Of a stretch of 64,000 nucleotides of DNA, positions 25,146 to 57,112 are shown in pieces. Position 1 is the stretch's first letter, and each line of letters starts with the position of its first letter. The DNA comes from Minisyncoccota bacterium (GTDB lineage Bacteria; Patescibacteriota; Minisyncoccia; Phycocordibacterales; UBA918), in the NCBI GenBank assembly GCA_021734905.1, contig JAIPIB010000001.1, forward strand, positions 71,476-135,475, given 5' to 3'. Made by a program: the position numbers and the translations under genes. A model generated the notes under the pieces. The model did not search any database, was not told where the DNA came from, and saw only the letters and a program-made list of their open reading frames with translations.

Positions 25146-25148
25146 CAT

Positions 25149-27685: not shown

Positions 27686-27699
27686 ATCTACTAAGCAAT

Positions 27700-28764: not shown

Positions 28765-28833
28765 ATACTGACGAAGGAAAGTATTTAAAAAATTAGAAAT
28801 GACAGAATAGAAATGGTGTTCTAATATAGATTT

Positions 28834-32335: not shown

Positions 32336-32342
32336 TGATTGT

Positions 32343-33512: not shown

Positions 33513-33570
33513 AGAGGTAATTTTATTCGAATCACTATATACTAGTACAAATCAAAATTATGCAACGAGT

Positions 33571-34191: not shown

Positions 34192-34192
34192 T

Positions 34193-35284: not shown

Positions 35285-35304
35285 TCCTCAAACATCACTA
35301 TAGT

Positions 35305-36339: not shown

Positions 36340-36343
36340 TCGT

Positions 36344-37498: not shown

Positions 37499-37542
37499 AC
37501 AGTGAATTTTAAATTTAGTAGTCATATGATATATTTACATCG

Positions 37543-38580: not shown

Positions 38581-38608
38581 ATTATTGATAATGCACCTTT
38601 AAGTATCT

Positions 38609-39989: not shown

Positions 39990-39990
39990 T

Positions 39991-41265: not shown

Positions 41266-41317
41266 GGTGAGATTATAACGTGTGACTCATGTACGTACAA
41301 GCACCTGCTGAAGGGGT

Positions 41318-42115: not shown

Positions 42116-42168
42116 CTATAACTTGAAGATAGCAACCTTTTATGTGTAATTTTAGTACTATTGGTTAG

Positions 42169-43167
42169 TTGTATCAGCAAAATAATATGTTAGAACGTGA
42201 TTTAGTTGAAGAAAGAATTAAACAGACTATTGCTGCGGAAGTTGCAGCTGTCTCCAACTTGTCTGAGGGCATTGATGATAATTTTTATCGTGCAGTTGCA
42301 TTAATTGCTGATCGAGGTGGAAAGATACTCATCACCGGGGTTGGGAAATCAGGGTATATTGCTATGAAGATGGTCGCGACTCTTATTAGTCTTGGTCATG
42401 AATCGGTATTTTTAAATCCGCTTGATGCTTTACATGGAGATTCTGGGATGGTCAAGGATGACGATGTGTTGGTCGTCTTTTCTTTTTCTGGTGGATCACC
42501 TGAGTTGGTGAGGATCGTTGAGCACCTTAAGAAACATTTTTCTATTGGTGTCGTGACAATTACTGGGAATTGTAATTCTATGCTTTCAAAATTGTCTGAT
42601 GAAGCGATCACTTTTTCGGTGGAAGAAGAAGGGTGTCCTTTAGGTCTTGCACCTATGGCAAGTACGACAGCATCACTCGTAATTGCTGACAGTATTGCTG
42701 CAGCATTGACGTCACCTGACACTTTTAGGCAAGAACATTTTGCTATGTTCCATCCTGCAGGAAGTCTCGGGCTTTCATTAAAAAAAGTCAAAGAAATCAT
42801 GCGCGGAGGCGACGAATTACCAAAGGTATCGATGTATATTAGTTTTGAGGAAGTGCTTGAAGCAATAACTTCGCAACGGCTCGCGCAGATTGTCGGTGTT
42901 GTAGACGAGGAAGGGTATTTGGTTGGAGCACTCGGTGATGGAGATATAAGAAAAATGCTTATTAAACATGGAGACCTTCGGGGGAAACAGATTAATATCT
43001 TCATGAATCAATCACCTAAAACAATCAATGAAGATGATAGTCTGCAGGTCGCACTTCAAACAATGAAAGAACATAAAATTAACAATCTTTTTGTGACTGA
43101 TAGCAACAATGTCTATATTGGGTTTATTCATCTGCATGACATTGTTGGTGATTATGCAACGTCTTGA
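42169..43167 (+). CDS. kpsF: Arabinose-5-phosphate isomerase (KpsF/GutQ; SIS domain plus tandem CBS)
   Basis: GKILITGVGKSGYIAMKMVATLISLG (SIS) and two CBS repeats at the C-terminus. Confidence 0.85.
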   Translation: MYQQNNMLERDLVEERIKQTIAAEVAAVSNLSEGIDDNFYRAVALIADRGGKILITGVGKSGYIAMKMVATLISLGHESVFLNPLDALHGDSGMVKDDDVLVVFSFSGGSPELVRIVEHLKKHFSIGVVTITGNCNSMLSKLSDEAITFSVEEEGCPLGLAPMASTTASLVIADSIAAALTSPDTFRQEHFAMFHPAGSLGLSLKKVKEIMRGGDELPKVSMYISFEEVLEAITSQRLAQIVGVVDEEGYLVGALGDGDIRKMLIKHGDLRGKQINIFMNQSPKTINEDDSLQVALQTMKEHKINNLFVTDSNNVYIGFIHLHDIVGDYATS

Positions 43168-43200
43168 TTTTTTTACAGAAAAGTTTTTCCATCAAGTTAA

Positions 43201-44706
43201 ATGAATTCTATGGAGCCTAATAAACATTATGCAATTGATCTTCTTACTCGGATTAATGCATTGCAACATAACGGAAAAGATATTTCCTTAGCCTTTATCG
43301 AAGGCAAGTATTCACGATGGGCATTTCAGCAGTTTTTCCTCCTGAGTCAGATTGAGGAATTCAGTAAGACAAAAGATTTTTCAAATTATATTAAGAGACG
43401 AAAGCCACGATATGGGACCATTAGTATTTTTTTTGTCATCCTTTTCGAAGTTGTGACTGTGTTTTTTACGATACTACAAATTATGTACGTTCGTATTCAT
43501 CGTCCAAGAGTAATAACATTTTCATCGGATTTTTTAGATGCTTCGACCCATCTTAATCCACGATTGCGAAATATTTATTCATATTTTCATGCTAAAAATA
43601 TATCTTACGTTGAAATTCTCCATGTTACGACAGTGCGAAATTTTCTTATAAATATATGGAAACGAGGAGGATTAAGTATTTATCTTGAAGCATTTAACAC
43701 AGTATCACGTGCATGGACTTTTGTGAGTCGAAAAACTAATGCTGATGACTTTGTTAAGGAGCTTGATTTACAGAACATTCATGAAGATGAGCGTAAATTT
43801 GTCGAGTACCTTATTGCTGAGGCTGTTGAAAAAATTCAAGTCGCTAAAATAAATTCCGTCATTATTCAAGCCTTTTTACGTTTCAGTGGTGTGCGGGAAT
43901 ATGTATCTGCAGATGATTTCCGATATATACCTGAGTTGCTCCTTGCTTGTGAAAGGGAACATATACCATCGTATGTATTTCAACACTCAAATTTTGGATA
44001 TCTGACTGGAATGTATTTATTACCACCACAGATATATATTTTTCCTTTAATTTTCTTTACGTGGAATGCTTACTGGAAGAGAAGAATTAAAGAAATAAGT
44101 CCATTTTTTTCAGAGTATGGGTCTCGTATTGAAATCGGAGGACGTTCATTTACACCAGCGCAACCCGTACAGGTCATTCGTAAGAAGTTGGACAGCACAA
44201 GAGATAGCATTTCAGTACTAATTCCATATGAAGTTTCTGTGAGCAGGGATCAAATTATTCCATACACTAGCCAACTTCTTGGCGACTCACGAATCAGAAT
44301 ATTTTTTGTTCTAAGAGGAACCATTGATCAGATTGATTATGGAATGCAACTGGATAAATACTTTACTTCTGAACATCAAAAGAGCCCACAACTGGTTGTC
44401 GTGGAACCATCTGGACGGCAAGGAGCCGTCGAAAATTGTAATGTCATTGCAGGCGTGTATTCTGGTTTCCTTGATGAGTCGATTGAGACAGGTGTGCCAA
44501 TTTGTGTATTCATGACTGATTTTCTCACGGTAAATAGGCTCGATGAAGACAATCTTGCGTCCACTATTGACTATGTTCAGGGGAATATCTATGATCAGCT
44601 ACGCAGTGCTTGTATGACACCAGACCATATTTTGTCTGAGAGAAGAGAGAGAGTTCATTCGGGCACTGTAGATATTCGTAAGACACTGCAGAGGATATTG
44701 GAATAA
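43201..44706 (+). CDS. Hypothetical membrane-associated protein (501 aa) sandwiched between kpsF and kdsB. Candidate Kdo-handling transferase, by inference only.
   Basis: One TM helix around residues 70-95. No motif I can name. The function is suggested solely by gene context. Confidence 0.45.
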   Translation: MNSMEPNKHYAIDLLTRINALQHNGKDISLAFIEGKYSRWAFQQFFLLSQIEEFSKTKDFSNYIKRRKPRYGTISIFFVILFEVVTVFFTILQIMYVRIHRPRVITFSSDFLDASTHLNPRLRNIYSYFHAKNISYVEILHVTTVRNFLINIWKRGGLSIYLEAFNTVSRAWTFVSRKTNADDFVKELDLQNIHEDERKFVEYLIAEAVEKIQVAKINSVIIQAFLRFSGVREYVSADDFRYIPELLLACEREHIPSYVFQHSNFGYLTGMYLLPPQIYIFPLIFFTWNAYWKRRIKEISPFFSEYGSRIEIGGRSFTPAQPVQVIRKKLDSTRDSISVLIPYEVSVSRDQIIPYTSQLLGDSRIRIFFVLRGTIDQIDYGMQLDKYFTSEHQKSPQLVVVEPSGRQGAVENCNVIAGVYSGFLDESIETGVPICVFMTDFLTVNRLDEDNLASTIDYVQGNIYDQLRSACMTPDHILSERRERVHSGTVDIRKTLQRILE

Positions 44707-44739
44707 GTCCATATGTTTGAAATAAACTAAGAGATTAGT

Positions 44740-45495
44740 ATGAATATAAATAAAGATATAAAAGTACTCGGAGTAATATCAGCTCGAATTGGATCAACAC
44801 GAGTATCGAGAAAGATGCTTAAGGATGTCTATGGGAAGACGCTCATTTGCAGGGCGTATGAGAGGACTGTTCAGGCAAAAAAATTAGACGCACTTGTAAT
44901 TGCAACAGATTCGGATGAAATTGAAGCTGAAGCAAAATCATTTGGAGCAAAGGTTATTCGGTCCATCAAGGAGCATGCGAATGGTACGGAACGCACAGCT
45001 GAAGCCGTAAAAATATTTGATGAATTTCTTCCTGATACTGTGGTGACTGTTTGGGGTGATGAGCCAACCTACCCTGCCTCAGCAATTGATGATTGTATTG
45101 ATTTGTTTCATACGGGTAAGTTTGATGTCGTTATACCTTCATTCAAGATCCATAATCCAGCATCCATAGATGATCCAAGTGTGGGGAAGGTGGTTACCGA
45201 TATTCATGGACGTATTTTGTATCTCTCTCGTTCTACTATTCCACATAATTATAAAGGTGCGAGTGTCGATTACTATCATGCGAGTGGTGCAATGATTATG
45301 CATCGAGACTTTTTTGATATTTATAGTTCACTTCCAAGAACAGGATTAGAGGCGATAGAAGATATTGAACAACTGAGAATTCTTGAGCAAGGATATTCGA
45401 TTGGAACTATTAAAACCAATTTTTTGAATCAAGGGGTAAATACACCGGAAGATTATGAAGCCGTCGTTCAAATATATAAAGAACGAGAAGGGTAG
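44740..45495 (+). CDS. kdsB: 3-deoxy-manno-octulosonate cytidylyltransferase (CMP-Kdo synthetase)
   Basis: HANGTERTAEAV...VVTVWGDEPTYP, LYLSRSTIP, EDIEQLRILEQGYSIGT...GVNTPEDY align block-for-block with E. coli KdsB. Confidence 0.8.
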   Translation: MNINKDIKVLGVISARIGSTRVSRKMLKDVYGKTLICRAYERTVQAKKLDALVIATDSDEIEAEAKSFGAKVIRSIKEHANGTERTAEAVKIFDEFLPDTVVTVWGDEPTYPASAIDDCIDLFHTGKFDVVIPSFKIHNPASIDDPSVGKVVTDIHGRILYLSRSTIPHNYKGASVDYYHASGAMIMHRDFFDIYSSLPRTGLEAIEDIEQLRILEQGYSIGTIKTNFLNQGVNTPEDYEAVVQIYKEREG

Positions 45496-45512
45496 TGTTT
45501 TTTATATAAAAT

Positions 45513-46793
45513 TTATTTAGAATTATCTTTTTCTGATCTTGAAAAGAGAATCATTTGTAGAATTATAGTCGCTCCTTTTGAAAGTAAAATAGATAGAATG
45601 GCGCCGAGAACTCCATAGTGGGGAATAAGTATGACAAAGAAAAAGATTTTTAACCCAGAGTCAAATATTCTGATTGAATAAAGAGATTTTATTTTTTTTT
45701 GGATTTGAAGAGCGTTACCGTGAAGGATTCCAGCAGCAATAATGGGAAGAATGAGTATGTAGATTGATGCATACCATGAAGCCTCAACATATTGAGGAAA
45801 CAGCAATGAATAGAGTGGTTTCGCTATTATCCAGAAAAGTATAGTGATAACGAGCGTGACGATGACGTATGTTCGTGTGTGAGTTTTGATACTATGAGCA
45901 AGTTGCGCGTCATTTTTTGTACTAAGTCTTGGTATAACCATCGAATTAATTAATTTGTTGATACTTCGAATTTGATCAGGAATTCCAACTGAAAACGCAT
46001 AAATAGCTAGTTGGTATGGTCCAAGGAATTGGAAAATAAGGATTTTGTCGATATATTCAGCTATAACACTAATGATGTTTCCAACACTGAGGTGCCTACT
46101 GAGTGCCTGCTCAGAGACGTCGACACTATTTTTGTCAGGGTTATAAAATCGGAGAGTTCTTTTTTGAGCAAGATATTGATAAAGCGTCATCGAGCCATTG
46201 TAGGCAAGGAGTATCCAAAACACACTTGTGGCATCAAAAAATATAATACATGCTATGGAAGACACTACGGTAATTGAACTGAGTACTTGATTTTTTGCGA
46301 GATTCTTAAAATCTTTTTTTCCGTTTAGAAACGAAGTGTGCAGTATGAAAATATTTTGCAGATATACAAAAGTGCTCATGAGTATGACTCCAAGTCCAAG
46401 AACATAATTATCGTTATAGATGTAGTATCCGCCAAAGAAAAGCGAGATTATTATTGCGGGAGTACCCCATAGAGCAGAGAGTTTTTTTTCGTATTCAAGC
46501 GACCCATCAAATCCCTTTGAAACTGATTGCAGCACTGCGCTGGCAGCACCAGTAAGCGAAAAAGCACTTATTATTCCAGCAACAGCAAGGATGTATTTAT
46601 ATTGTCCATAGGTAGTTGAATCAATATAGTTCGCGAGAAGTACCGAAACAAGAAATCCACAAAGTGTACCAAAGGCATGACTACTACTAATTATAGTACC
46701 GTTTTTAAGTAAATAATGAATATCAATATGAAATTTTTTTTGTATGATGTTGAGAAAAGATTCTAATTTCATGGTGTGTGTTGATTTTACCAC
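45513..46793 (-). CDS. Wzx-type oligosaccharide flippase (polysaccharide biosynthesis protein / MOP superfamily)
   Basis: 426 aa with about 12 predicted TM helices and a typical Wzx hydrophobicity profile. Confidence 0.7.
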   Translation of the reverse strand: MVKSTHTMKLESFLNIIQKKFHIDIHYLLKNGTIISSSHAFGTLCGFLVSVLLANYIDSTTYGQYKYILAVAGIISAFSLTGAASAVLQSVSKGFDGSLEYEKKLSALWGTPAIIISLFFGGYYIYNDNYVLGLGVILMSTFVYLQNIFILHTSFLNGKKDFKNLAKNQVLSSITVVSSIACIIFFDATSVFWILLAYNGSMTLYQYLAQKRTLRFYNPDKNSVDVSEQALSRHLSVGNIISVIAEYIDKILIFQFLGPYQLAIYAFSVGIPDQIRSINKLINSMVIPRLSTKNDAQLAHSIKTHTRTYVIVTLVITILFWIIAKPLYSLLFPQYVEASWYASIYILILPIIAAGILHGNALQIQKKIKSLYSIRIFDSGLKIFFFVILIPHYGVLGAILSILLSKGATIILQMILFSRSEKDNSK

Positions 46794-47320
46794 TACCTAG
46801 TACATGAAGATGGTTGTGTGATATTTGTAACCACTATTGTAGGCTATAAGTTTAGCCTATTCGTGGCCTGTTTTTAGAGTATGAGAGTCAAGGCTCCAAA
46901 TATGATACTATCCTTATGTACAATATGTAGCATTCTTGGAACAACAAAATCAATACAAAATCTTACTCGAGTGAATTACTTCCAATGATTTCGAGGCCTT
47001 GATTTGACCAATCTAATACAATACGGAGATTTTGCACTTGCTCACAATCTCCTTAGCATAACGGGTGACGTAACACCACAGCCATTTGTGTCGAAAGGTA
47101 ACGAAACGAAATATCGAGCCTTTGAGTTCTAGTGATTGGTGAGTCGTTTAACTCACACATAATATTCACTTTGAGGAGACACGCACTGTTGATGGTCTGT
47201 ATTCCTACATGTATGTAGGGGGGCAGTTTGCATTTTAAATGACCTAACTCTAAAATACAAAGTTGGATTACAGAACACTCAATCGCAGTCCTTGTAGGAC
47301 TTGCTGTCGCTATTCTAGTA

Positions 47321-49009
47321 GTGTCTCCACATATTCGATCTTTTCTCATAATTGGTTCTGAAAATTTTGAAGGGGTATACCCAGCTTTTAATGATGATGA
47401 AATCACGTATCAAGCGAGAATCAAAGAAGCGGTGGAAGGAAATTTGAACATTGGGAATCCATACATTAAGGAGCATATGAGTGATCCGTTTATTATGCCA
47501 CCAGTTGGTGAGTGGATAATTGCCATCGGGGCATGGATAACGAATACATCAGTACCGTTTATGACGAGTGCAAGTGATTTTGTTTTTGGTTTTGTTGACT
47601 TTGTGCTTGTCTACGCACTTTTTCTTATGGTCACCAGAAAAAGAAAATGGGTGGCACTCTTTTATACAGTACTGTTTATTTCTTTCTCTCTTTCGACATT
47701 TGGTCGCCCAATAAGCCCGCAACTCAATTCCATTTTTTTATATTTGGGAATTATAGCTACTGCGCGCATTTATTTTCTTGATGGTGTATCAAAGAAGTCG
47801 TGGAACCGCACGGCCGGCCTTATTGCTGGTATTACCTGTTTTATCTCCCCGTATTTTTTCACCGCACTACTCGTATTTTATTTTGCACTTTTTTTACTGA
47901 AAGGAGTATTTGAAAAAAGTATTGAACCACTTAAAAGAAACATTCCATCATTTCTGATAACATTTATACCATTTGCGTTACTCTATGCATTCTTTCAAAT
48001 ACGCGCTGCTGGAGATCCTTCGTATAGTGAAACTGTGCTTCGGTATGGTCTTTTCCAGTCACATCTCCCAGGAAGTTATACAAACGTGGCCTTTGGTGTG
48101 CTTACATTGGGGGTAATTTTTATAGCATACAAATTTCTCACACAAAGAGCATTTATTTTTGGCCTAAGTGTTGTGAGTAGTATATGGATACTTAATTTAC
48201 AAAACATTATTACGGGCAAATCACTTCAATTTTCAAGCCATTATCTATTTACCACGATTCTTTTTGTACTCATGGCGCTGGCAGTTATTCACGGGGCACT
48301 TCTCGAACAGAAAGGAAAAACTAGTAATAGGAAAACTATGGCTATTATAGGAATTATTTTTGTGGTATCGCTTGTTGCATATAATCAGCGAAATGAATTT
48401 ATGCATATTGCCAATATGCCATACACACGAGAGGAGCTCATCGAAGAGCAGAGGAAAATGAAAGTGTTTGAATGGCTGAATGAAAATACTGAGCCAAATT
48501 CTGTCGTGTATTCATTGGGAGATAATTATGATTTTCTTATTCCGATCTACACTGAAAATAAGGTTTATTATAATTTTTATGCGGCGCTCTACCCAGCATC
48601 GAATACTGAAACGGAAGAGCGATGGCTTATACAGAACATGTTTGTACCGGAGATAGATTCGAACACGATACGAGATAGGCAGCGAGAATTTTGGGGTAAT
48701 CGATTTATTGATGTCTACCAATCCGCCGAAAATAGAAAAAAAATTGTTGCCTTTTTGACACGAACAAAGTACGCTCCTTCAGAAATGATTGACGAAAGTT
48801 TCATCGACTATATGCATACAAGATGGGAAGGAATTAAAGAGCAACCACATGAGGAACTATTCGGACGCTATCAAATTGATTATATTCTTCTGAGTAAAGA
48901 ATATTTGTATTTCAATGATACAAAGAAACGTCTTGATGAAACAAAGAATATTACTTTGCAGACCACTATGAATGGAGAATTAATTTATAGTGTTGTGGAC
49001 CCACTGTAG
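47321..49009 (+). CDS. Integral membrane protein (562 aa): about 9-10 TM helices plus a roughly 230-aa soluble C-terminal domain. GT-C-like glycosyltransferase candidate.
   Basis: GTG start in the ORF track. The in-frame upstream codons 47243-47320 encode a hydrophobic stretch with no ATG. The topology resembles PMT/ArnT-type GT-C enzymes. Confidence 0.5.
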   Translation: MSPHIRSFLIIGSENFEGVYPAFNDDEITYQARIKEAVEGNLNIGNPYIKEHMSDPFIMPPVGEWIIAIGAWITNTSVPFMTSASDFVFGFVDFVLVYALFLMVTRKRKWVALFYTVLFISFSLSTFGRPISPQLNSIFLYLGIIATARIYFLDGVSKKSWNRTAGLIAGITCFISPYFFTALLVFYFALFLLKGVFEKSIEPLKRNIPSFLITFIPFALLYAFFQIRAAGDPSYSETVLRYGLFQSHLPGSYTNVAFGVLTLGVIFIAYKFLTQRAFIFGLSVVSSIWILNLQNIITGKSLQFSSHYLFTTILFVLMALAVIHGALLEQKGKTSNRKTMAIIGIIFVVSLVAYNQRNEFMHIANMPYTREELIEEQRKMKVFEWLNENTEPNSVVYSLGDNYDFLIPIYTENKVYYNFYAALYPASNTETEERWLIQNMFVPEIDSNTIRDRQREFWGNRFIDVYQSAENRKKIVAFLTRTKYAPSEMIDESFIDYMHTRWEGIKEQPHEELFGRYQIDYILLSKEYLYFNDTKKRLDETKNITLQTTMNGELIYSVVDPL

Positions 49010-49085
49010 TCCGTTTAATTCTGTATCTTTGAATGAATATGGTAAGTTATAGAAATTGCTGGAGACAACAAGAAATAAATAATTT

Positions 49086-49796
49086 ATGAAACGAATAACA
49101 ATTTCTGGAGGTTTTGATCCGATACATCCTGGACACATTGCGATGATTGAGGATGCAAAGAAGTTTGGTGAGGTACACGTAATTGTAAACAGTGATGATT
49201 GGCTTATACGAAAGAAGGGTTTCTTTTTTCAACCGTGGACAGATCGTAAAAAAATCCTTGAAGCGTATACACCACATGTTTATGATGTCGATGATTCTGA
49301 TGGTACTGTCTGTGAAGCACTTCGTCGTATTAGGCCAGACTATTTTGGAAATGGCGGTGATAGGGGAAAGACAAATACTCCAGAATTAAATGTGTGTGAG
49401 GAGCTCGGTATAGAGCCGGTTTTTGAACTTGGTGGAGGGAAATATTCTTCAAGCTCAGCATTGAATGCAAAACAGCGAGTGAGTACACGATGGGGTTGGT
49501 TTGACGTTATCCTTGATATGCACGCACTGAAAGTAAAAATGCTTCATATTGAAGCAGGGAAATCATTATCGCTCCAAAAGCATGGTGACAGGAGTGAGTT
49601 CTTTTTTATGCCTACCGGAGAAGTGAGGGTAAATCTTCCTGGCGTATGGCATGTGCTTGAAGCACCAAGCGACCAAGACCTGGATGTTCTCGAGGTCCAA
49701 ATGGGAATTTCGGCAGAGGAAGATATTGATAAGATACATGAGACTCATGAGTCGTTTGACGTTGAAAAAGTAAAGAAAATACTTCTGAATAGATAG
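49086..49796 (+). CDS. Fusion of a HIGH-motif (cytidylyltransferase-like, RfaE-domain-II/TagD-type) nucleotidyltransferase with a PMI-type cupin
   Basis: N-terminal ISGGFDPIHPGHIAMIEDAKKFG (HxGH). C-terminal RWGWFDVILDMHALKVKMLHIEAGKSLSLQKHGDRSEFFFMPTGEVRV parallels the ManC PMI cupin (RPWGxY...KVKRI.V.PG..LS.Q.H.HR.E.W). Confidence 0.65.
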   Translation: MKRITISGGFDPIHPGHIAMIEDAKKFGEVHVIVNSDDWLIRKKGFFFQPWTDRKKILEAYTPHVYDVDDSDGTVCEALRRIRPDYFGNGGDRGKTNTPELNVCEELGIEPVFELGGGKYSSSSALNAKQRVSTRWGWFDVILDMHALKVKMLHIEAGKSLSLQKHGDRSEFFFMPTGEVRVNLPGVWHVLEAPSDQDLDVLEVQMGISAEEDIDKIHETHESFDVEKVKKILLNR

Positions 49797-49863
49797 CTAT
49801 GAAAATTATTATACACAAGGGTGTTATTATATGTTTTCAATAATATTTTTTTGACACATCATT

Positions 49864-50571
49864 ATGAGTAACACTACTAACGAAACATTTTCTTATACAG
49901 GAGGGGCAGCACTCGAAAACATGAATGAAGCCGTTCGATACAATCAAGCGCTTCTCAATTTAATTTATCGAACTGACATAACCAAAACGTCTAGGATACT
50001 TGATTTTGGTGCAGGAATGGGCACGTTTTCAAAATTGCTTCGTGAAGAAGGCTATAAGGTTGACTGTCTTGAAGTTGACCCCACAGAGAGTGCTTATTTG
50101 CGCGGTGCAGGTTTTACTGTTTTTGAGAATCTACTCGAGGTTCCTGATGGTGTGTACGATAGCATTTACAGTCTTAACGTGCTTGAACATATAGAAGATC
50201 ATGCTGGGGCTCTCTCTGAATTGCAGAAAAAATTGAAAGTTGGTGGCAGACTATTCTTGTATGTTCCTGCATTTCAATCTCTTTATTCCGAATTTGATGC
50301 CATGTTAGGTCATTTTCGTCGATATAAATTATCTGATCTACAAACACTACTCGAAGCTAGCCACTTCAGTATTCTTGATATTCGTTATTATGATACGCTC
50401 GGCTTTCTTGCTGCATACATGTTTAAGTTACTTCGTTCAAAACCAGAGCAGGTTACGCGAAGAAAGATATGGATATTCGATCGACTCATCTTCCCATGTA
50501 ACCGCATTTTTGATCCGTTATTTCGGAGGTGGTTTGGAAAAAATATCTTTGCATTGTGTATTAAAAAATAG
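49864..50571 (+). CDS. Class I SAM-dependent methyltransferase
   Basis: ILDFGAGMGTFSKLL motif I and LNVLEHIEDH. Confidence 0.7.
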   Translation: MSNTTNETFSYTGGAALENMNEAVRYNQALLNLIYRTDITKTSRILDFGAGMGTFSKLLREEGYKVDCLEVDPTESAYLRGAGFTVFENLLEVPDGVYDSIYSLNVLEHIEDHAGALSELQKKLKVGGRLFLYVPAFQSLYSEFDAMLGHFRRYKLSDLQTLLEASHFSILDIRYYDTLGFLAAYMFKLLRSKPEQVTRRKIWIFDRLIFPCNRIFDPLFRRWFGKNIFALCIKK

Positions 50572-50631
50572 AGATTTCATACCATATGCATATTCATTAA
50601 ATATGCTACAATCCCAGCAAATTTAACTGAT

Positions 50632-51756
50632 ATGATAGATGCCTTGCGTCCATATGTATTCCTCGGTGTTGCAGTAATTGTTGCGACGTTAAGTTTTCTT
50701 GTGATTGGTCCATTTAATATGAATATTGATGGAGATATCTATGTTGCACAGGTTGAACAATTCGAATCTGGACAAGTAACCAATGTGCCATACAATGTTG
50801 CGCAACGTGCGTTTAAGCCAGCGGTTGGTGTATTAGGAAGTTTGCTTGTACCATTTTTTACACCAACTGAAGCAATCCAATTCCTAAACCTCTTAATACT
50901 TTTCGCATTACCGTTTGTTGCATTCAAATTTTTCTGTGAGTGTGGTTTCACAGAGAAAGAAGCGACATGGGGAGCAGTCTGGCTTATGACCGGGTATCCT
51001 GTCTTGAAATATGGACTTGCGATTAGTACAGATATGGGAAGTTGGCTTTTCGCACTCGCAAGTGCATATTTTGTACTTAAAGGCTTACGCACGGATTCAT
51101 ATCGAACGATTCTTCTCGCGTCACTCCTTGGATTTATTGGAGGAACAATAAAAGAGCCTGGAGTTTTTGGGCTTTTCTTCGGAGCTATATACATCGCTTT
51201 TACATATGCACAACGACCAATACAAAAAACTATTACACTACTTTCGGTTCTAGCACTTCCAGCATTTATCTGTGAAACGATACTTTTTTCAGTACTCATA
51301 TACGCCGGATTTCCAACATTTTTGGATTGGTATAGTGTCGTCACCGTTGAAAAGTTTGCAGCAGAGCATTACCAGCTATTACAATTTGCTGGGGTCCTTG
51401 CTTCCACGTTTAGTATTCTGCTTGTGTATGCATTGATAGGATTTATTTCTGTTCTGTACAGACGTGTACGACTTTATGACACGACGCATGCATTTACAGC
51501 AGCAGTTCTTCTAACGTCGTTACCAATATTACTTTGGAAAATATTTATTTCGCGAGTTCTTTTTATTCAGTTTATATTTTTTATACCGATGGCACTACTC
51601 GGAGTACGTACGCTCAACGAGTATGTTGGGAGCAGGAAGAGCGTATTAAAATTACAGACCGTTTTATACGTATTACCAATCATCTGCTCTGTGGGGCTTT
51701 TCTTGCTCGCTGGTCGAGGGTCACTCTTTGACCTATTCACTAGAATATTTGGGTAG
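50632..51756 (+). CDS. Polytopic membrane protein (374 aa, about 10 TM). GtrC/GT-C-like candidate.
   Basis: Converges on and overlaps the 3' end of gtrA by 24 nt. No soluble domain. Confidence 0.5.
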   Translation: MIDALRPYVFLGVAVIVATLSFLVIGPFNMNIDGDIYVAQVEQFESGQVTNVPYNVAQRAFKPAVGVLGSLLVPFFTPTEAIQFLNLLILFALPFVAFKFFCECGFTEKEATWGAVWLMTGYPVLKYGLAISTDMGSWLFALASAYFVLKGLRTDSYRTILLASLLGFIGGTIKEPGVFGLFFGAIYIAFTYAQRPIQKTITLLSVLALPAFICETILFSVLIYAGFPTFLDWYSVVTVEKFAAEHYQLLQFAGVLASTFSILLVYALIGFISVLYRRVRLYDTTHAFTAAVLLTSLPILLWKIFISRVLFIQFIFFIPMALLGVRTLNEYVGSRKSVLKLQTVLYVLPIICSVGLFLLAGRGSLFDLFTRIFG

Positions 51757-52164
51757 GTTATTTTCCTTGTTTTTGAATAGCTTACTGTAGGCAAGATACG
51801 ACCATACTGCGATGATCATTGCTACCACGATTTGCGCAACAACCGGGGCAAGGCCAACGCGCTCGACAAAGAAAATCATGAGTACATAGTTTACAAAAAA
51901 GTTCATTGAGGCAACAAGAAAGAAAAGTAGGGACTGTTTGTGGACTGTTTGCGTATCAGTGTTTCGGAAAGTAAAAAACTTTTGCATTATAAAATTAAAC
52001 GTAACAGCACCAAGAAAACCAAATGTTGTTGCGTACCGGTACCAAACATCAAATACATCAGTCAGTATGAATACGATACCAATATGGATCGATGCACTCG
52101 TTCCTCCTGAAAATAGAAAACGAAATATTCTTATCCCAAATATTTTTTTTGTCAGTTGATACAT
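51733..52164 (-). CDS. GtrA-family polyprenyl-phosphate-sugar flippase-like protein
   Basis: 143 aa with 4 TM helices. FLFSGGTSASIHIGIVFIL...FNFIMQKFFTFRN is characteristic of GtrA. Confidence 0.7.
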   Translation of the reverse strand: MYQLTKKIFGIRIFRFLFSGGTSASIHIGIVFILTDVFDVWYRYATTFGFLGAVTFNFIMQKFFTFRNTDTQTVHKQSLLFFLVASMNFFVNYVLMIFFVERVGLAPVVAQIVVAMIIAVWSYLAYSKLFKNKENNLPKYSSE

Positions 52165-52173
52165 TTTGTTACG

Positions 52174-52884
52174 TTAATCGGTGAAACGGTATTTAATGAG
52201 AGTCCAAACTCCCTCGATGCCATCCCGCCAGTTTATTTTTTTCCCGTCGGCAACTGACCGTGGATAGTATGAGATTGGAACTTCATGAATTGGAATCTTT
52301 CTTTTGGCAATCTTCGCAGTTATTTCAGGGCAGAATTCGAAACCTGTACAGGCGAGAGGGATACTTTTGAGAAGGTTTGCTCTAAATACTTTATAACAGG
52401 TTGGTTCGTCAGTGATTCTGGTGTTGTAGAGAAGATTTGTCTGTATAGTGAGCACCATACCCCCAACATAAAACCAAAAACCTGAATATTGAGCATTCTC
52501 TTTCTTGAGTCTTCTTGAGCCATACACGACGTCCGCAGTGTTGTTTAGTATTGGTGCAATGAGAAGTTTAAAGTCCTCTGGGTCATATTCTAAATCAGCA
52601 TCCTGGATAATAATAATTGTACCAGTGCAGTGGGCAATTGCGGTACGAATTGCAGAACCCTTGCCCTGGTTTTTTTGCGATAATAATGTAATTGGTAGTG
52701 TTGGATTGTGAGCGATGAATGTCTCGACTTGCTCGATGGTTTGGTCAATTGAACCATCATTAACAATGATGATCTCCTTAGATACACCCATTGCCTCAAG
52801 ATCCACAGCGTGGATTTTTTCAAGGATCTTTTGGATCGTTGACTCTTCATTGTAAGCAGGGATTATAATTGATAGTCGATGCAT
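52174..52884 (-). CDS. GT2 polyprenyl-phosphate hexosyltransferase (GtrB/DPM1-like)
   Basis: LSIIIPAYNEE, IIVNDGSID and QDADLEYDP (DXD) motifs. Confidence 0.8.
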   Translation of the reverse strand: MHRLSIIIPAYNEESTIQKILEKIHAVDLEAMGVSKEIIIVNDGSIDQTIEQVETFIAHNPTLPITLLSQKNQGKGSAIRTAIAHCTGTIIIIQDADLEYDPEDFKLLIAPILNNTADVVYGSRRLKKENAQYSGFWFYVGGMVLTIQTNLLYNTRITDEPTCYKVFRANLLKSIPLACTGFEFCPEITAKIAKRKIPIHEVPISYYPRSVADGKKINWRDGIEGVWTLIKYRFTD

Positions 52885-53008: not shown

Positions 53009-54685
53009 TTGTCACTTAGAATAAATAAATTATATATGAATACAGAGCATGCTGATATCCTACATCTTCCGCGACTTAATCTGCGTGGAAGGCAACTCCA
53101 CGATCTTGAGGTGATGCTCGTGGGTGGATTTCTTCCTGTAACGGGATTTATGGATGAGGAGGATTATACTTCTGTAGTAGAGACAATGCGACTCAAAAAC
53201 GGTTCACTTTTTCCTATTCCGATTGTGCTCGATATTCCTGCAAAGAGTCCGTATGTCGTTGGCGACAAAATTTTGCTCTGTGATTCTTTTGGTAACCCCC
53301 TCTCAGTTATGGATGTCACCTCACGGTTTACACCAGATAAAAAAAGGGAAGCGCAGGCTGTGTATGGAACTGAAGATACTATGCATCCAGGGGTACAGTA
53401 TCTTTTCAGTGAAATGCATGACACCTACATTGGAGGAACACTATCGAAGCTTGCGCTTCCAATTCGAAACGACTTCAAACAATTTAGAAAAACACCGGAA
53501 GAACTTAAGGTTATATTTAAGGAGAAAGGATGGGACAGGGTTGTTGGTTTCCAGACGCGCAACCCAATGCATCGTGCACATTTTGAGCTTGTTAAACGCG
53601 CATATGAAAAAGTCGGTGCCCCCGTGCTCGTACACCCTGTTGTTGGGATGACAAAGCCTGGCGATATTGATTACGTGACGAGAGTTCGTACGTATAACAT
53701 TGTCTGTAATAGTTATGGAAAGGATTTTACGTATCTTTCCCTCTTGCCACTTGCTATGCGTATGGCAGGCCCACGAGAGGCCGTATGGCATGCGATTATT
53801 CGAAAGAATTACGGGTGTACGCATTTTATCTCTGGGCGCGATCATGCAGGTCCTGGCAAAGGGAGTGATGGAAAAGATTTTTATGGACCATATGACGCGC
53901 GCGATCTTGCACTTAAATATGCTGATGAGATAGGCATTACTATCATTGCATCTGATGAGCTTGCATATTCTAAGACGCGACAATCGTATGTCGCCGCTGA
54001 CGAAGTGACTCATGAAGATGAAATTGAGAATATTTCAGGTACTGAATTTAGAAGGAAGCTGCGTGAAGGTGAAGATATTCCCGAATGGTTTTCGTTTAAG
54101 GAAAGCATTGATATATTGCGTGAAAGTGTCCGAAAGGATATTCGACCCGGTGTCACTTTCTTTTTTACAGGACTCTCATGTTCTGGTAAGTCGACACTCG
54201 CCCAACTACTTCTTGCTCGTCTTCAAGAAATTCAAGATCGTGAAGTGACATTCCTTGACGGTGACGTCATTCGTGAAAATCTTTCAAAAGGCCTCGGTTT
54301 CTCAAAGGAGGATCGGGATGAAAATGTAAAGAGAGTTGGGTTTGTTGCTAGTGAAGTGGTGAAGCACGGAGGAATAGCCATTTGTTCACTTATTGCACCA
54401 TACCGTGATACGCGTCGATATGTGCGAAATATGATAGAGCACCATGGTGAGTTTATTGAAATATTCGTGAATGCGTCTGTTGATGAGTGTGCGAGGCGCG
54501 ATACAAAGGGTCTCTATGAAAAGGCCCGCAAGGGACTCATTAAGGGATTTACTGGTGTTGATGACCCATATGAAGAGCCTGAAAATCCAGAGCTCATTGC
54601 CTTGACTGAAGAAAATTCTCCGGAAGTAATTGTCGAAGAAATACTGAAATATCTACATGAACGTGAGATATTCAAGCGGAAGTAG
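53009..54685 (+). CDS. Bifunctional sulfate adenylyltransferase (ATP sulfurylase) / adenylylsulfate kinase (PAPS synthase)
   Basis: N-terminal GFQTRNPMHRAHFEL (QTRN/HRAH ATP-sulfurylase motifs). C-terminal VTFFFTGLSCSGKSTLA P-loop and APS-kinase fold. Confidence 0.85.
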   Translation: MSLRINKLYMNTEHADILHLPRLNLRGRQLHDLEVMLVGGFLPVTGFMDEEDYTSVVETMRLKNGSLFPIPIVLDIPAKSPYVVGDKILLCDSFGNPLSVMDVTSRFTPDKKREAQAVYGTEDTMHPGVQYLFSEMHDTYIGGTLSKLALPIRNDFKQFRKTPEELKVIFKEKGWDRVVGFQTRNPMHRAHFELVKRAYEKVGAPVLVHPVVGMTKPGDIDYVTRVRTYNIVCNSYGKDFTYLSLLPLAMRMAGPREAVWHAIIRKNYGCTHFISGRDHAGPGKGSDGKDFYGPYDARDLALKYADEIGITIIASDELAYSKTRQSYVAADEVTHEDEIENISGTEFRRKLREGEDIPEWFSFKESIDILRESVRKDIRPGVTFFFTGLSCSGKSTLAQLLLARLQEIQDREVTFLDGDVIRENLSKGLGFSKEDRDENVKRVGFVASEVVKHGGIAICSLIAPYRDTRRYVRNMIEHHGEFIEIFVNASVDECARRDTKGLYEKARKGLIKGFTGVDDPYEEPENPELIALTEENSPEVIVEEILKYLHEREIFKRK

Positions 54686-54892: not shown

Positions 54893-57112
54893 ATGAAAGA
54901 TATTGCAAAAGGATTAGTGTACATGGGGATTTTTGCCATCCCTTTCATTCCGCTTATCATCTCTAATTCAATGTTCTTCCCATTTATTACTGGAAAGAAC
55001 TTCACATTCCGTATCCTTGTCGAAATCGTTTTTATTGCATGGATAATTCTCGCTGCGTATGAGCCAGCGTATCGACCGAAACGTTCGGCGATAGCGTTGA
55101 GTTTCCTTTTGTTTCTTGTTGTTATGTTTGTCGCTAATATTAATGGGCAATATCCATTAAAAAGTTTTTGGAGTAACTTTGAACGAATGGAAGGATACGT
55201 AACACTCGTACATACTTTCGCCTATATGCTTGTTCTCGGAAGTGTGTTTACGACCCAAAAAATTTGGGATAGGTATTTTATGACCATCATTGGTTCAGCA
55301 ATGATTCTTTCTCTGTACGCATTTGCACAGCTTTCTGGAAATATTGTCATCAATCAAGGTGGGGGACGACTTGATGGAACACTTGGGAATTCTGCCTATA
55401 TGGCAATCTACACGCTCTTCCTTATTTTTATAACATTTTTTATGCTGCTCCGAACTCAGAGCAAAGGCATGCGATATGGGTATAGTGCACTCATACTTCT
55501 CTTCATGTATTTATTACTGCAGACTGCCACTCGAGGAACAGTACTAGGTCTCGTAGGAGGTATGTTTATTGCTGTCTCTTATATCGCATTATTAATAAAA
55601 AGTCATCCACATGTACGTAAGTACGCAGTTGGTGGATTGGTGGCAATAGTAGCGAGTGTGACACTTTTCATTACATTTAAGGAATCTTCTTTCATTCAAG
55701 GAAATCCCTATCTCGCACGTATTGCAACTATTTCTTTAAAAGAAGGATCAAACCGTTTTGAAATTTGGAGCATGGCATTTGAGGGGGTAAAAGAACGTCC
55801 ACTTCTTGGATGGGGGCAAGGAAACTACAATTATGTCTTTAACAAGTACTATGAGCCTGAACTTCATGGGGGAGAAGCATGGTTCGACCGTGTTCATAAT
55901 ATTGTTATGGATTGGTTGATTGCTGGTGGATTCATTGGTGCCGTTGCCTATTTCTCAATTCTTGGTTCTGCAGTGTACTATCTTTTCTTCCGCCCACTCT
56001 TCAAGAAGGATGATGAAGCGTTTACTGTCGTGGAACGTGGAGTTCTCTTGGGAATTCTTGCAGGGTACACAGTACACAATCTCTTTGTGTTCGATAATAT
56101 TGTGAGTTATGTGTTTTATGGAACGATACTCGCATATATTCATTCACGGACAAGTACTGGTATTCCTGCACTTGAGCGGTGGAAGATCGATGTTCGTGTT
56201 GTTGAACAGGTAGTAGTTCCTGTTATGACAATCCTCCTTGTCATAACAGTCTACTTTGTAAATGTTCCAGCTATACAGGCATCGAAAGATATTATTAACG
56301 CATTCCGAGCAAAAGATCCGAATGAGATGCTTAAAAATTTTGATATTGCTCTTGCACGAAATTCGTTTGGAAATCAAGAGATACGCGAACAACTTACTCA
56401 ACGTGCGCAATCAGTCTTTCAAGATCCGAACGCACCAGAAGCATTAAAACAGAAGACGTTTAAACGTGTTGAAGAGGAGTTGCAAAAGCAGATAGAAGAG
56501 AAGCCCAATGATGCAAGAGTCGAGGTGTTTATCAGCTCATTCTATCGAATGACTAATAATCTTGATCAGGCGGTTACTCACCTTGAGAAAGCTCGATCAC
56601 TTTCCCCACGAAAGCAGCTCATTATCTTTGAGCAAGGTACGGTAGCATTGCAGAAACAGGAATTCGAGAAAGCTACAGAATTCTTTAAGGAGGCTTACGA
56701 ACTTGGACCACAGTTTATAGAGTCGCGTGTGTATTACGCAACCGCATTGGTTTATGGTGGGCAACTTGGGCTTGTTGGCGACCTTATCCAAACAGAAGAA
56801 CAGAAGAATGCCTTTGCAGTAAATGAAAATGCAGTTAGAGCAGTTTACCAGGCAAAAATGTATCCAATGCTTAAAGATATGTTTGCGCGACAAATTGTGC
56901 TAAATCCAAACAATGGACAAGTAAGAACGAATCTTGCGTATGTATTGAGCGAGACGGGAGATACTGCAGGAGCAATCGACGTCCTTACAAAGGCAGGAGA
57001 GGATATTCCAAGTTTCAAGGAACAGGCGGATCAATTTATAGCAACCATTAAAAATGAAGATCCTGCAACACCGACTGTAGAAATTAATGGGCAGAAAGTT
57101 CAGACTGAATAA
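54893..57112 (+). CDS. O-antigen ligase/polymerase-like (Wzy_C) membrane domain fused to C-terminal TPR repeats
   Basis: About 12 TM helices with a periplasmic loop TRGTVLGLVGG...LLGWGQGNY. C-terminal roughly 250 aa show TPR-like repeats. Confidence 0.7.
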   Translation: MKDIAKGLVYMGIFAIPFIPLIISNSMFFPFITGKNFTFRILVEIVFIAWIILAAYEPAYRPKRSAIALSFLLFLVVMFVANINGQYPLKSFWSNFERMEGYVTLVHTFAYMLVLGSVFTTQKIWDRYFMTIIGSAMILSLYAFAQLSGNIVINQGGGRLDGTLGNSAYMAIYTLFLIFITFFMLLRTQSKGMRYGYSALILLFMYLLLQTATRGTVLGLVGGMFIAVSYIALLIKSHPHVRKYAVGGLVAIVASVTLFITFKESSFIQGNPYLARIATISLKEGSNRFEIWSMAFEGVKERPLLGWGQGNYNYVFNKYYEPELHGGEAWFDRVHNIVMDWLIAGGFIGAVAYFSILGSAVYYLFFRPLFKKDDEAFTVVERGVLLGILAGYTVHNLFVFDNIVSYVFYGTILAYIHSRTSTGIPALERWKIDVRVVEQVVVPVMTILLVITVYFVNVPAIQASKDIINAFRAKDPNEMLKNFDIALARNSFGNQEIREQLTQRAQSVFQDPNAPEALKQKTFKRVEEELQKQIEEKPNDARVEVFISSFYRMTNNLDQAVTHLEKARSLSPRKQLIIFEQGTVALQKQEFEKATEFFKEAYELGPQFIESRVYYATALVYGGQLGLVGDLIQTEEQKNAFAVNENAVRAVYQAKMYPMLKDMFARQIVLNPNNGQVRTNLAYVLSETGDTAGAIDVLTKAGEDIPSFKEQADQFIATIKNEDPATPTVEINGQKVQTE

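What the first reader, a model, noticed from the sequence alone, without database searches (positions are those of the whole stretch)
53009..54685. Fused ATP sulfurylase-APS kinase (single-polypeptide PAPS synthase) embedded between GtrB and the Wzy_C-TPR gene
QTRN/HRAH sulfurylase motifs plus a C-terminal APS-kinase P-loop in one 558-aa protein. Its placement inside the glycan locus, not with cys genes, supports a dedicated role in donor (PAPS) supply for the sulfotransferase at 28834.
Basis: partly seen in the sequence, partly recalled or inferred. Interest (0 to 1): 0.5.

Follow-up and report, generated by a model that had tools for sequence, protein, structure and literature searches.

The report
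PAPS synthase in CPR glycan locus
This gene encodes an ordinary, intact two-step enzyme that makes the activated sulfate donor PAPS; it sits at the edge of a large sugar-polymer gene cluster containing a sulfotransferase, in a tiny-genome (CPR/Patescibacteria) bacterium, which suggests that these poorly known bacteria put sulfate groups on their surface glycans.

Summary
ORF 53009..54685 (+) encodes PUA_2 + ATP-sulfurylase + C-terminal APS-kinase. The true start is probably the ATG at 53036, giving 549 aa. It passes the NCBIfam equivalog cut-off for the bifunctional enzyme and aligns full-length to the Aquifex aeolicus SAT/APS kinase (PDB 2GKS). All catalytic motifs of both domains are intact, so it is not the fungal regulatory-domain type or the Thiobacillus/Entamoeba dead-sulfurylase type.

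The source is a CPR bacterium (NCBI: Candidatus Pacebacteria). The gene lies at the right edge of a roughly 40-kb glycan island. The left part of the island holds a carbohydrate-type sulfotransferase (28834) translationally coupled to a CE4 N-deacetylase and an AsnB-like amidotransferase. Two further genomes carry sulfotransferase and PAPS synthase on one contig in the same layout, and a distant Uhrbacteria homologue also sits among glycan genes. No cys genes were found near it in the window or in any CPR relative examined. A published CPR survey reports PAPSS genes but no sulfur-reduction genes.

Dedicated PAPS-supply genes inside glycan clusters are already known (Vibrio cysNDC plus sulfotransferases), so this is a new member of a known kind. 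Sulfate import, PAP removal and a genome-wide absence of cysH remain unverified.

The parts
53036..54685 (+). Bifunctional ATP sulfurylase / APS kinase (PAPS synthase), 549 aa. The ORF tool lists it from TTG 53009. Approximate domain spans: PUA_2 53051-53449, ATP-sulfurylase 53480-54124, APS kinase 54149-54598.
   Evidence: Identical protein P0001.
28834..29682 (+). PAPS-dependent sulfotransferase of carbohydrate type. 5'-PSB loop GAQRTGTS (aa 8-15, Arg11), putative catalytic Glu in GEFSTSY (aa 63-69), 3'-PB RNPITRALS (aa 93-101). No TM or signal segment.
   Evidence: Pfam. PDB best hits are 3RNL, heparan sulfate 3-OST and the NDST sulfotransferase domain. Motifs. Essential-residue criteria from PMC6637879.
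29682..30491 (+). CE4 polysaccharide N-deacetylase with TFDD (aa 81) and HTTTH (aa 156) intact. Its start overlaps the sulfotransferase stop (ATGA). Possible generator of the free amine or of the acceptor.
   Evidence: Adjacent to the sulfotransferase in L009, L010, L013 and L095.
30479..32335 (+). AsnB-like glutamine amidotransferase. It overlaps the CE4 gene by 13 nt and is the third member of the conserved sulfotransferase-CE4-AsnB trio.
21907..22716 (+). PHP-family metal-dependent phosphoesterase (ORF listed from 21859). Positionally conserved with an ATP-grasp gene at the left edge of the island. It is only a candidate for removing PAP, the by-product of sulfotransfer.
   Evidence: Conserved position.
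54893..57112 (+). Wzy_C (O-antigen ligase/polymerase-like) membrane protein with a C-terminal TPR domain. It is the conserved downstream neighbour and marks the right border of the island, followed by MurB and SecA.
51733..52884 (-). GtrA-like flippase component (51733-52164) and a GT2 glycosyltransferase (52174-52884), divergently oriented upstream neighbours.
15462..52884 (.). Glycan-synthesis island holding the sulfotransferase trio. It contains at least 8 GT4 genes, one GT9, three GDP-mannose-4,6-dehydratase-like genes, KpsF-like SIS+CBS, a CMP-sugar synthetase-like gene, a Wzx-like flippase, several methyltransferases and two unassigned polytopic membrane proteins.

Best explanation
The gene encodes a catalytically competent, Aquifex-type bifunctional PAPS synthase. 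The N-terminal PUA-like and ATP-sulfurylase domains convert sulfate and ATP to APS and PPi. The C-terminal APS-kinase domain phosphorylates APS at the 3'-OH to give PAPS. In this CPR (Patescibacteria) bacterium the PAPS is used as a sulfuryl donor, not reduced to sulfide. The cytoplasmic carbohydrate-type sulfotransferase at 28834 sulfates a sugar residue of the surface glycan built by the surrounding island of about 40 kb, probably on a cytoplasmic, lipid- or nucleotide-linked intermediate. The glycan is then flipped (Wzx-like flippase at 45513) and attached or polymerised (Wzy_C-TPR). Shown here: the domain architecture, the intact catalytic motifs, the conserved position, and the co-occurrence with the sulfotransferase. 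Inferred: enzymatic activity, the acceptor, absence of a reductive pathway in this genome, how sulfate enters the cell, and how PAP is removed.
For: Architecture and family. Full-length match to the enzymatically bifunctional A. aeolicus enzyme 2GKS, E 8e-169 (its kinase domain is described as active in PMC3779200). Sulfurylase motifs QTRN, HRAH and GRDHAG, and kinase P-loop GK[ST], LDGDxxR and lid RDxKG, are present in the window protein and in 116-120 of 120 homologues. The kinase checklist comes from M. tuberculosis CysC (PMC4373884). The Ala in 'IAPY' also occurs in the T. denitrificans and E. histolytica chains that are deposited and described as APS kinases (PMC13213808). Conserved position next to Wzy_C-TPR, MurB and SecA at the edge of a variable glycan island. 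Sulfotransferase and PAPS-synthase homologues on one contig in two more genomes: and 69/70; six matching contig lengths are tallied. The sulfotransferase has PAPS-binding motifs and its nearest characterised relatives are heparan-sulfate glucosamine sulfotransferases. A distant CPR homologue also lies in a glycan context. Non-CPR homologues lie in heterogeneous contexts where CysQ-like phosphatase is the commonest neighbour, consistent with PAPS production. CPR genomes are reported to have PAPSS but no sulfur-reduction genes (PMC12114108). Precedent for PAPS-synthesis genes plus sulfotransferases in a capsule cluster: PMC11641403.
Against: No activity data exist. The sulfotransferase is 23 kb away (24 and 38 kb in the relatives), so no operon links the two genes. 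The conserved linkage could partly reflect shared ancestry within one clade, not independent selection. In one relative (JBKJIT010000001.1) no close homologue of this sulfotransferase was seen within 10 kb of the gene or among the 120 listed sulfotransferase hits. No sulfate transporter and no CysQ/NrnA-type PAP phosphatase was found in the window. The rest of the genome could not be inspected for cysH, sir or cysK. Promoter-like sites are no more frequent than in shuffled sequence.
Confidence: 0.75

Rival explanations
1. Assimilatory use: PAPS is made for reduction by a PAPS reductase (CysH) to sulfite and then sulfide for cysteine synthesis, and the position in the glycan locus is incidental.
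For: Sat-CysC fusions of this family occur in many free-living bacteria that assimilate sulfate (taxonomic spread). The CPR survey's own summary lists 'sulfate assimilation' among CPR potentials (PMC12114108). Only 64 kb of the genome could be inspected.
Against: No cysH, sir or cysK lies in the window or within 10 kb of the gene in the CPR relatives examined. The same survey found no sulfur-reduction genes in CPR. The position beside glycan genes and the co-occurrence with a sulfotransferase are conserved.
Confidence: 0.07
2. Only one half is catalytic. Either the C-terminal kinase-like domain is a regulatory PAPS-binding module as in filamentous fungi, so the product is APS, or the N-terminal domain is a dead sulfurylase-like scaffold as in T. 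denitrificans and Entamoeba, so APS would have to come from elsewhere.
For: Both degenerate states are documented for exactly this architecture (PMC13213808; PMC3779200). The protein matches P. chrysogenum ATPS (1I2D, E 3e-150) and T. denitrificans 3CR8 (E 1e-104) strongly. The kinase domain has Ala, not Ser, in the '(I/F)SPY' position.
Against: The P. chrysogenum domain reads GYMNSGKD and LLGD where the window protein has GLSCSGKS and LDGD (alignments). The window keeps the P-loop Lys-Ser, both Asp of LDGD, both phosphosulfate Arg and the lid Arg/Lys. QTRN, HRAH and GRDHAG are intact and almost invariant in homologues. 'IAPY' is shared with the T. denitrificans and E. histolytica APS kinases.
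Confidence: 0.05
3. The enzyme does supply PAPS for sulfation, but the main acceptor is not the glycan of this island. It could be a lipid, a protein tyrosine or a small molecule, sulfated by this or another sulfotransferase elsewhere in the genome.
For: Bacterial PAPS is used for sulfolipids (M. tuberculosis, PMC4373884), for tyrosine sulfation (RaxST, PMC6637879) and for natural products. Sequence alone does not fix the acceptor of the sulfotransferase. The two genes are 23 kb apart.
Against: The sulfotransferase is flanked by four GT4 genes and overlaps a CE4 sugar N-deacetylase gene. Its nearest characterised relatives are glucosamine sulfotransferases. Both genes stay inside the same island in three genomes.
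Confidence: 0.1

Closest known systems
Aquifex aeolicus bifunctional ATP sulfurylase-APS kinase (PDB 2GKS; NCBIfam NF004040 / PRK05537)
   Same: Same domain order (PUA-like, sulfurylase, C-terminal APS kinase). Full-length alignment over residues 17-552 with E 8e-169. The catalytic motifs of both domains are identical or conservative, including a Cys in the P-loop (GLSCSGKS here, GLPCAGKS in Aquifex).
   Different: The host is a small-genome CPR bacterium, not a chemolithoautotroph. The gene is embedded in a glycan island. The kinase has IAPY where Aquifex has VSPY. The physiological role is inferred to be sulfation, not assimilation or sulfur oxidation.
Polysaccharide gene clusters that carry their own PAPS-synthesis genes plus sulfotransferases. 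The documented example is the Vibrio sp. KMM 8419 capsule cluster with second copies of cysN, cysD and cysC (PMC11641403). From my own knowledge, rhizobial nodPQ with nodH is another.
   Same: Sulfate-activation genes sit inside a glycan biosynthesis locus together with a PAPS-dependent sulfotransferase. The Vibrio authors propose this combination as a hallmark of sulfated polysaccharide synthesis.
   Different: Here activation is done by one Sat-type fused polypeptide, not the GTPase-coupled CysD/CysN plus CysC. It is probably the organism's only sulfate-activation system, not a second copy (not verified). The lineage is CPR, for which I found no report of sulfated glycans.
Entamoeba histolytica sulfate activation pathway
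   Same: According to PMC6715247, sulfolipids are the major terminal metabolites of Entamoeba sulfate activation, which is a precedent for a reduced organism that activates sulfate chiefly for sulfation.
   Different: It is a eukaryote, with separate AS and APSK proteins; its APSK has a dead sulfurylase-like domain; the products are sulfolipids, not glycans.
Heparan sulfate N-deacetylase/N-sulfotransferase (NDST)
   Same: A sugar N-deacetylase activity is paired with a sulfotransferase of the heparan-sulfate sulfotransferase type. The window sulfotransferase matches the NDST sulfotransferase domain at E 2e-13, and its gene overlaps an intact CE4 deacetylase gene.
   Different: There are two separate polypeptides. 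The sulfotransferase matches 3-O-sulfotransferases at least as well (E 1e-16), so N- versus O-sulfation is undetermined. The acceptor glycan is unknown.

Membership tests
Bifunctional sulfate adenylyltransferase/adenylylsulfate kinase (NF004040, Aquifex type) | Single polypeptide with PUA-like, ATP-sulfurylase and C-terminal APS-kinase domains in that order | tested here: met
   Pfam PF14306 (aa 15-147), PF01747 (aa 158-372), PF01583 (aa 381-530).
Bifunctional sulfate adenylyltransferase/adenylylsulfate kinase (NF004040, Aquifex type) | Score above the curated equivalog cut-off of the family model | tested here: met
   779.1 bits against a cut-off of 669, model positions 24-568 of 572.
Bifunctional sulfate adenylyltransferase/adenylylsulfate kinase (NF004040, Aquifex type) | Intact sulfurylase active-site motifs (QTRN, HxxH as HRAH, GRDHAG) | tested here: met
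   Present at aa 182, 188 and 276; found in 120/120, 116/120 and 120/120 homologues.
Bifunctional sulfate adenylyltransferase/adenylylsulfate kinase (NF004040, Aquifex type) | Intact APS-kinase catalytic set: P-loop GxxxxGK[ST], LDGD, two phosphosulfate-binding Arg, lid Arg and Lys | tested here: met
   GLSCSGKS, LDGDVIR, EDR and RDTKG are present. Criteria from PMC4373884.
Bifunctional sulfate adenylyltransferase/adenylylsulfate kinase (NF004040, Aquifex type) | Both enzymatic activities demonstrated | not testable with these tools
   Needs recombinant protein and coupled ATPS and APSK assays.
Fungal-type ATP sulfurylase with regulatory (inactive) APS-kinase-like domain | Degenerate kinase motifs (P-loop ...GKD, LLGD in place of LDGD, as in P. 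chrysogenum 1I2D) | tested here: not met
   The window has GKS and LDGD where 1I2D has GKD and LLGD (alignment).
T. denitrificans / Entamoeba-type APS kinase with inactive sulfurylase-like domain | N-terminal domain lacks sulfurylase catalytic capacity | tested here: not met
   QTRN, HRAH and GRDHAG are intact. The N-terminal 372 aa match active sulfurylases (yeast 1G8F, E 6e-112), whereas 3CR8 aligns only from residue 140, in two stretches.
Glycan cluster with dedicated PAPS supply and sulfotransferase (Vibrio cysNDC + ST type) | Sulfate-activation gene(s) located within a polysaccharide biosynthesis cluster | tested here: met
   The gene is flanked by GtrA/GT2 and Wzy_C-TPR. The same position is kept in relatives and in Uhrbacteria.
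Glycan cluster with dedicated PAPS supply and sulfotransferase (Vibrio cysNDC + ST type) | PAPS-dependent sulfotransferase with 5'-PSB and 3'-PB motifs in the same cluster | tested here: met
   28834..29682: PF00685 and PF13469; Arg11, Glu64 and RNPxxRxxS. Co-located with the PAPS synthase in two more genomes.
Glycan cluster with dedicated PAPS supply and sulfotransferase (Vibrio cysNDC + ST type) | Sulfated polysaccharide product demonstrated | not testable with these tools
   The organism is uncultured and no chemical data exist.
Assimilatory sulfate reduction (cys) gene set | Linkage to cysH, sulfite reductase or cysteine synthase | tested here: not met
   None in the 64-kb window or within 10 kb in six CPR relatives. 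Absence from the whole genome was not testable.
Heparan-sulfate NDST-like N-deacetylase/N-sulfotransferase | Deacetylase and sulfotransferase fused in one protein, acting sequentially to N-sulfate glucosamine | tested here: inconclusive
   The genes are separate but overlapping (ATGA), both proteins lack TM or signal segments, and the pair is conserved in 5 of 5 loci. The sulfotransferase matches 3-OST (1e-16) and NDST (2e-13) about equally. The chemistry is untestable here.

The most novel reading that the evidence does not exclude
The overlapping sulfotransferase and CE4 N-deacetylase genes (28834..30491), fed by the PAPS synthase, act as a split bacterial analogue of heparan-sulfate NDST. 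An N-acetyl-hexosamine residue of the lipid-linked glycan would be de-N-acetylated and then N-sulfated in the cytoplasm. This would give CPR/Patescibacteria an N-sulfated, glycosaminoglycan-like surface glycan that could mediate attachment to host cells. To my knowledge, N-sulfated sugars made by bacteria have not been described.
Probability: 0.15. Interest if true: 0.65.

Novelty: new member of a known kind. Interest (0 to 1): 0.35.

Why it matters
CPR/Patescibacteria are mostly uncultured, small-genome bacteria, and many are thought to live attached to other cells, so their surface chemistry is central to their biology and almost unknown. A CPR survey noted PAPSS genes without any sulfur-reduction genes and offered no specific use for them (PMC12114108). 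The conserved arrangement found here gives a concrete and testable answer: PAPS synthase at one end of a glycan island and a sulfotransferase-deacetylase-amidotransferase trio at the other, which points to sulfation of an envelope glycan. Sulfated polysaccharides are considered rare in bacteria (PMC8205485, PMC11641403). A whole CPR clade making them would widen that picture and supply a compact single-polypeptide PAPS synthase and new carbohydrate sulfotransferases for glyco-engineering. The enzyme itself is ordinary and already correctly named by automatic annotation.

Tried and rejected
1. PHP-domain protein (21907..22716) as the missing PAP phosphatase.
- phmmer against PDB found nothing.
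- A 30-sequence profile matched only the uncharacterised TM0559 (E 7e-6).
- A confident AlphaFold model (pLDDT 91) matched TM0559 and RNase AM/TrpH with modest TM-scores of 0.43-0.61.
- It remains a candidate only.

2. Sulfate transporter in the window.
- Two unassigned polytopic membrane proteins (47321, 50632) and all other unannotated ORFs gave no transporter hit, even at Pfam E <= 1.

3. Riboswitch or other RNA element upstream: Rfam found only the 16S rRNA and a tRNA.

4. Promoter and terminator scan around the gene: no more sites than in shuffled sequence.

5. Genome-wide test for cysH, CysQ and SulP.
- This was not possible.

6. The T. denitrificans structure paper (PMC2756168), wanted for residue-level criteria, is not held. 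I used the CysC and Entamoeba papers instead.

7. Sulfotransferase next to the fused gene as a general rule.
- Rejected. Only 1 of 80 species-representative loci has a sulfotransferase of this subfamily within 10 kb.
- The glycan embedding is specific to the CPR lineages.
Full report
**Observation**

The ORF at 53009..54685 (+) exists and is the only plausible gene there; the overlapping ORFs of 86-190 aa are shadows. Pfam finds three domains: PUA_2 (aa 15-147, E 7.5e-40), ATP-sulfurylase (aa 158-372, E 7.3e-83) and APS_kinase (aa 381-530, E 2.2e-59). The NCBIfam equivalog model NF004040, 'bifunctional sulfate adenylyltransferase/adenylylsulfate kinase', scores 779 bits against a curated cut-off of 669.

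One correction is needed. An identical 549-aa protein (P0001) is on record from NCBI as 'MAG: bifunctional sulfate adenylyltransferase/adenylylsulfate kinase [Candidatus Pacebacteria bacterium]'. Homologues are about 549 aa long and align from about residue 10. The real start is therefore most likely the ATG at 53036, which follows an AT-rich leader.

**Which functional state of this architecture**

The literature describes three states for Sat fused to a C-terminal APS-kinase-like domain:
- both halves active, as in Aquifex aeolicus;
- the kinase-like domain inactive and regulatory, as in filamentous fungi;
- the sulfurylase-like domain inactive with an active kinase, as in T. denitrificans and Entamoeba (PMC3779200; PMC13213808).

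The window protein aligns over residues 17-552 with the A. aeolicus enzyme 2GKS (E 8e-169).

I took the kinase checklist from the M. tuberculosis CysC structures: P-loop Lys/Ser, the invariant LDGD with its catalytic Asp, two Arg that hold the phosphosulfate, and the lid Arg and Lys (PMC4373884). All are present: GLSCSGKS, LDGDVIR, EDR and RDTKG. By contrast, the regulatory P. chrysogenum domain reads GYMNSGKD and LLGD at the aligned positions.

The one departure is Ala in 'IAPY', where many APS kinases have Ser. The T. denitrificans and E. histolytica chains, both described as APS kinases, share this Ala. Across the 120 closest homologues these motifs are nearly invariant: QTRN 120, HRAH 116, GRDHAG 120, LDGDxxR 120, RDxKG 120. 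I conclude that this is a competent bifunctional PAPS synthase. Activity itself is inferred.

**Organism and surroundings**

The window carries a stand-alone 16S rRNA (597..2057) and one tRNA-Ile on the opposite strand. It also carries a T4SS pilin, a TrwB-like ATPase, a lamin-tail-domain protein, CofD and Mur ligases. Together with the NCBI names of the identical and related proteins (Pacebacteria, Paceibacteria, Kaiserbacteria, Paceibacterota), this places it in the CPR/Patescibacteria.

From about 15.4 to 57 kb the window is one large glycan-synthesis island. It contains:
- at least eight GT4 genes and one GT9;
- three GDP-mannose-4,6-dehydratase-like genes;
- a KpsF-like SIS+CBS protein and a CMP-sugar-synthetase-like protein;
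- a Wzx-like flippase and several methyltransferases;
- GtrA and a GT2;
- the Wzy_C-TPR membrane protein, which is followed by MurB and SecA.

No cysH, cysDN, sulfite reductase, cysK, CysQ-type phosphatase or recognisable sulfate transporter is present in the 64 kb.

**The sulfotransferase**

ORF 28834..29682 matches Sulfotransfer_1 and Sulfotransfer_3. It has the three elements regarded as essential for sulfotransferases (PMC6637879):
- a basic residue in the 5'-PSB loop (GAQRTGTS, Arg11);
- a Ser in the 3'-PB motif (RNPITRALS);
- an acidic residue between them that aligns with the 'EKTPSY' stretch of 3-OST-3, which from my own knowledge carries the catalytic Glu.

After an uncharacterised bacterial sulfotransferase (3RNL), its nearest solved relatives are heparan-sulfate glucosamine 3-O-sulfotransferases (E 1e-16) and the NDST sulfotransferase domain (E 2e-13). 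It is therefore a carbohydrate-type enzyme.

Its stop codon overlaps the start of a CE4 N-deacetylase gene whose TFDD and HTTTH motifs are intact. That gene in turn overlaps an AsnB-like amidotransferase gene by 13 nt. Neither the sulfotransferase nor the CE4 protein has a TM or signal-like segment.

**Comparative evidence**

Position. In relatives with 78-82% identical PAPS synthases, the gene sits at the right-hand edge of a variable set of glycan genes, followed by Wzy_C-TPR, MurB, SecA, Obg and GatB. In two relatives one or two methyltransferase genes are inserted between it and Wzy_C-TPR. This shows that it belongs with the variable island and is not in a fixed operon with Wzy_C.

Co-occurrence. 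Homologues of the sulfotransferase and of the PAPS synthase lie on the same contig in two further genomes:
- SRR25018350_85437, about 24 kb apart;
- Ga0456293_0000003, about 38 kb apart.

The order is the same as in the window: ATP-grasp, PHP, GT4 genes, ST-CE4-AsnB, variable genes, PAPS synthase, Wzy_C-TPR. Six long-contig lengths are shared between the two hit lists. The ST-CE4-AsnB trio is adjacent in every locus seen, including a complete 1.05-Mb Kaiserbacteria genome.

Wider distribution. The species-representative scan shows that the fusion occurs in many phyla at 45-55% identity. A rough NJ tree, without support values, groups the window's clade with Uhrbacteria and other Patescibacteria sequences. 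The Uhrbacteria gene (51% identity) is flanked by GT4, a methyltransferase, a CE4 deacetylase, GT2 and a Bac_transf priming enzyme. Another Patescibacteria gene is followed by an ABC-2 exporter component.

Contrast set. For non-CPR bacteria I examined 134 neighbour ORFs from 31 loci. The contexts are heterogeneous. The commonest family is Inositol_P, the CysQ-like PAP phosphatase family (4 ORFs); Sulfotransfer_3 has 2; and no PAPS reductase or sulfite reductase appears among the 25 most frequent families. Only one of 80 loci has a sulfotransferase of this subfamily within 10 kb. Embedding in a glycan island is thus a feature of the CPR lineages.

**Literature**

I found no paper in the held library that connects CPR/Patescibacteria with sulfotransferases or sulfated glycans. 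A 2025 groundwater study reports that CPR genomes lack sulfur-reduction genes but carry PAPSS, without linking it to a use (PMC12114108).

The general principle is known. The capsule cluster of Vibrio sp. KMM 8419 carries second copies of cysN, cysD and cysC plus three sulfotransferases. Its authors call that combination a hallmark of sulfated polysaccharide synthesis (PMC11641403). Entamoeba is a precedent for a reduced organism that activates sulfate chiefly for sulfation (PMC6715247).

**Mechanism proposed**

The steps are:
1. Sulfate is taken up by an unknown route.
2. The sulfurylase domain makes APS.
3. The kinase domain makes PAPS.
4. The cytoplasmic sulfotransferase at 28834 sulfates a sugar of the growing glycan, possibly after N-deacetylation by the coupled CE4 enzyme.
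5. The glycan is flipped and then ligated or polymerised by the Wzx-like and Wzy_C-TPR proteins.
6. PAP is removed by an unidentified phosphatase.

The positionally conserved PHP phosphoesterase (21907..22716) is a candidate for the last step. JGI labels its homologues TrpH. Its confident model is closest to an uncharacterised Thermotoga PHP protein and to RNase AM. This evidence is weak.

**Verdict**

The enzyme is a regular member of a known and already correctly auto-annotated family, and dedicated PAPS supply within glycan clusters has precedent. The mildly new element is the lineage: a conserved sulfation module in CPR glycan islands.

The main gap is that the genome-wide absence of an assimilatory pathway, the sulfate importer and the PAP phosphatase could not be checked with the available tools.

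Noticed in passing
window 28834-32335: The sulfotransferase, CE4 N-deacetylase and AsnB-like amidotransferase genes overlap (-1 and -13 nt). They are adjacent in every related locus seen (L009, L010, L013, L095), often followed by a UDP-glucose/GDP-mannose dehydrogenase gene. The sulfotransferase-deacetylase pairing resembles a split heparan-sulfate NDST.
   Followed up: partly
window 19956-22716: An ATP-grasp protein (ATPgrasp_Ter-like, 19956-21164) and a PHP phosphoesterase (21907-22716) mark the left edge of the glycan island. In the window a PaaX_M/Cas2-like protein (21240-21812) lies between them. In L009 and L095 the ATP-grasp and PHP genes are adjacent. The PHP model (pLDDT 91) is closest to TM0559 and RNase AM. 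Its role is unknown: PAP phosphatase, capsule-type phosphatase or something else.
   Followed up: partly
window 47321-49009 and 50632-51756: Two polytopic membrane proteins (8 and 7 TM-like segments) have no Pfam or NCBIfam match even at E <= 1. They lie between the flippase and the GtrA/GT2 pair. They could be GT-C glycosyltransferases, polymerases or transporters.
   Followed up: partly
window 597-2057 and 3962-4036: A complete 16S rRNA gene stands alone, with no 23S or 5S in the window. The only nearby tRNA (Ile-GAT) is on the opposite strand, so the rRNA operon is unlinked.
   Followed up: no
window 35305-39989: There are three paralogous GDP-mannose-4,6-dehydratase-like genes (35305, 37543, 38982), interleaved with a GT9 heptosyltransferase-like gene and a DUF6165 gene. 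A sugar C-methyltransferase gene follows on the opposite strand (39991-41265). This suggests several deoxy or branched sugars in the glycan.
   Followed up: no
window 18165-19846 (-): Two adjacent genes (368 and 192 aa) have no family assignment. Unannotated genes of similar size (364 and 205 aa) occupy the same position in the complete Kaiserbacteria genome (L013), just outside the ATP-grasp/PHP pair. Sequence similarity between them was not checked.
   Followed up: no
L094 6779-7309: A ParE/YafQ-type toxin gene and a small DUF6364 partner gene are inserted inside the glycan island of a relative. This fits with the middle of the island being a variable, exchange-prone region.
   Followed up: no
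window 3187-3651 (-), 10929-14358: A T4SS-type pilin, a TrwB/TraG-like coupling ATPase and a lamin-tail/PKD-domain protein lie upstream of the island. These are surface or DNA-uptake apparatus genes typical of CPR genomes.
   Followed up: no
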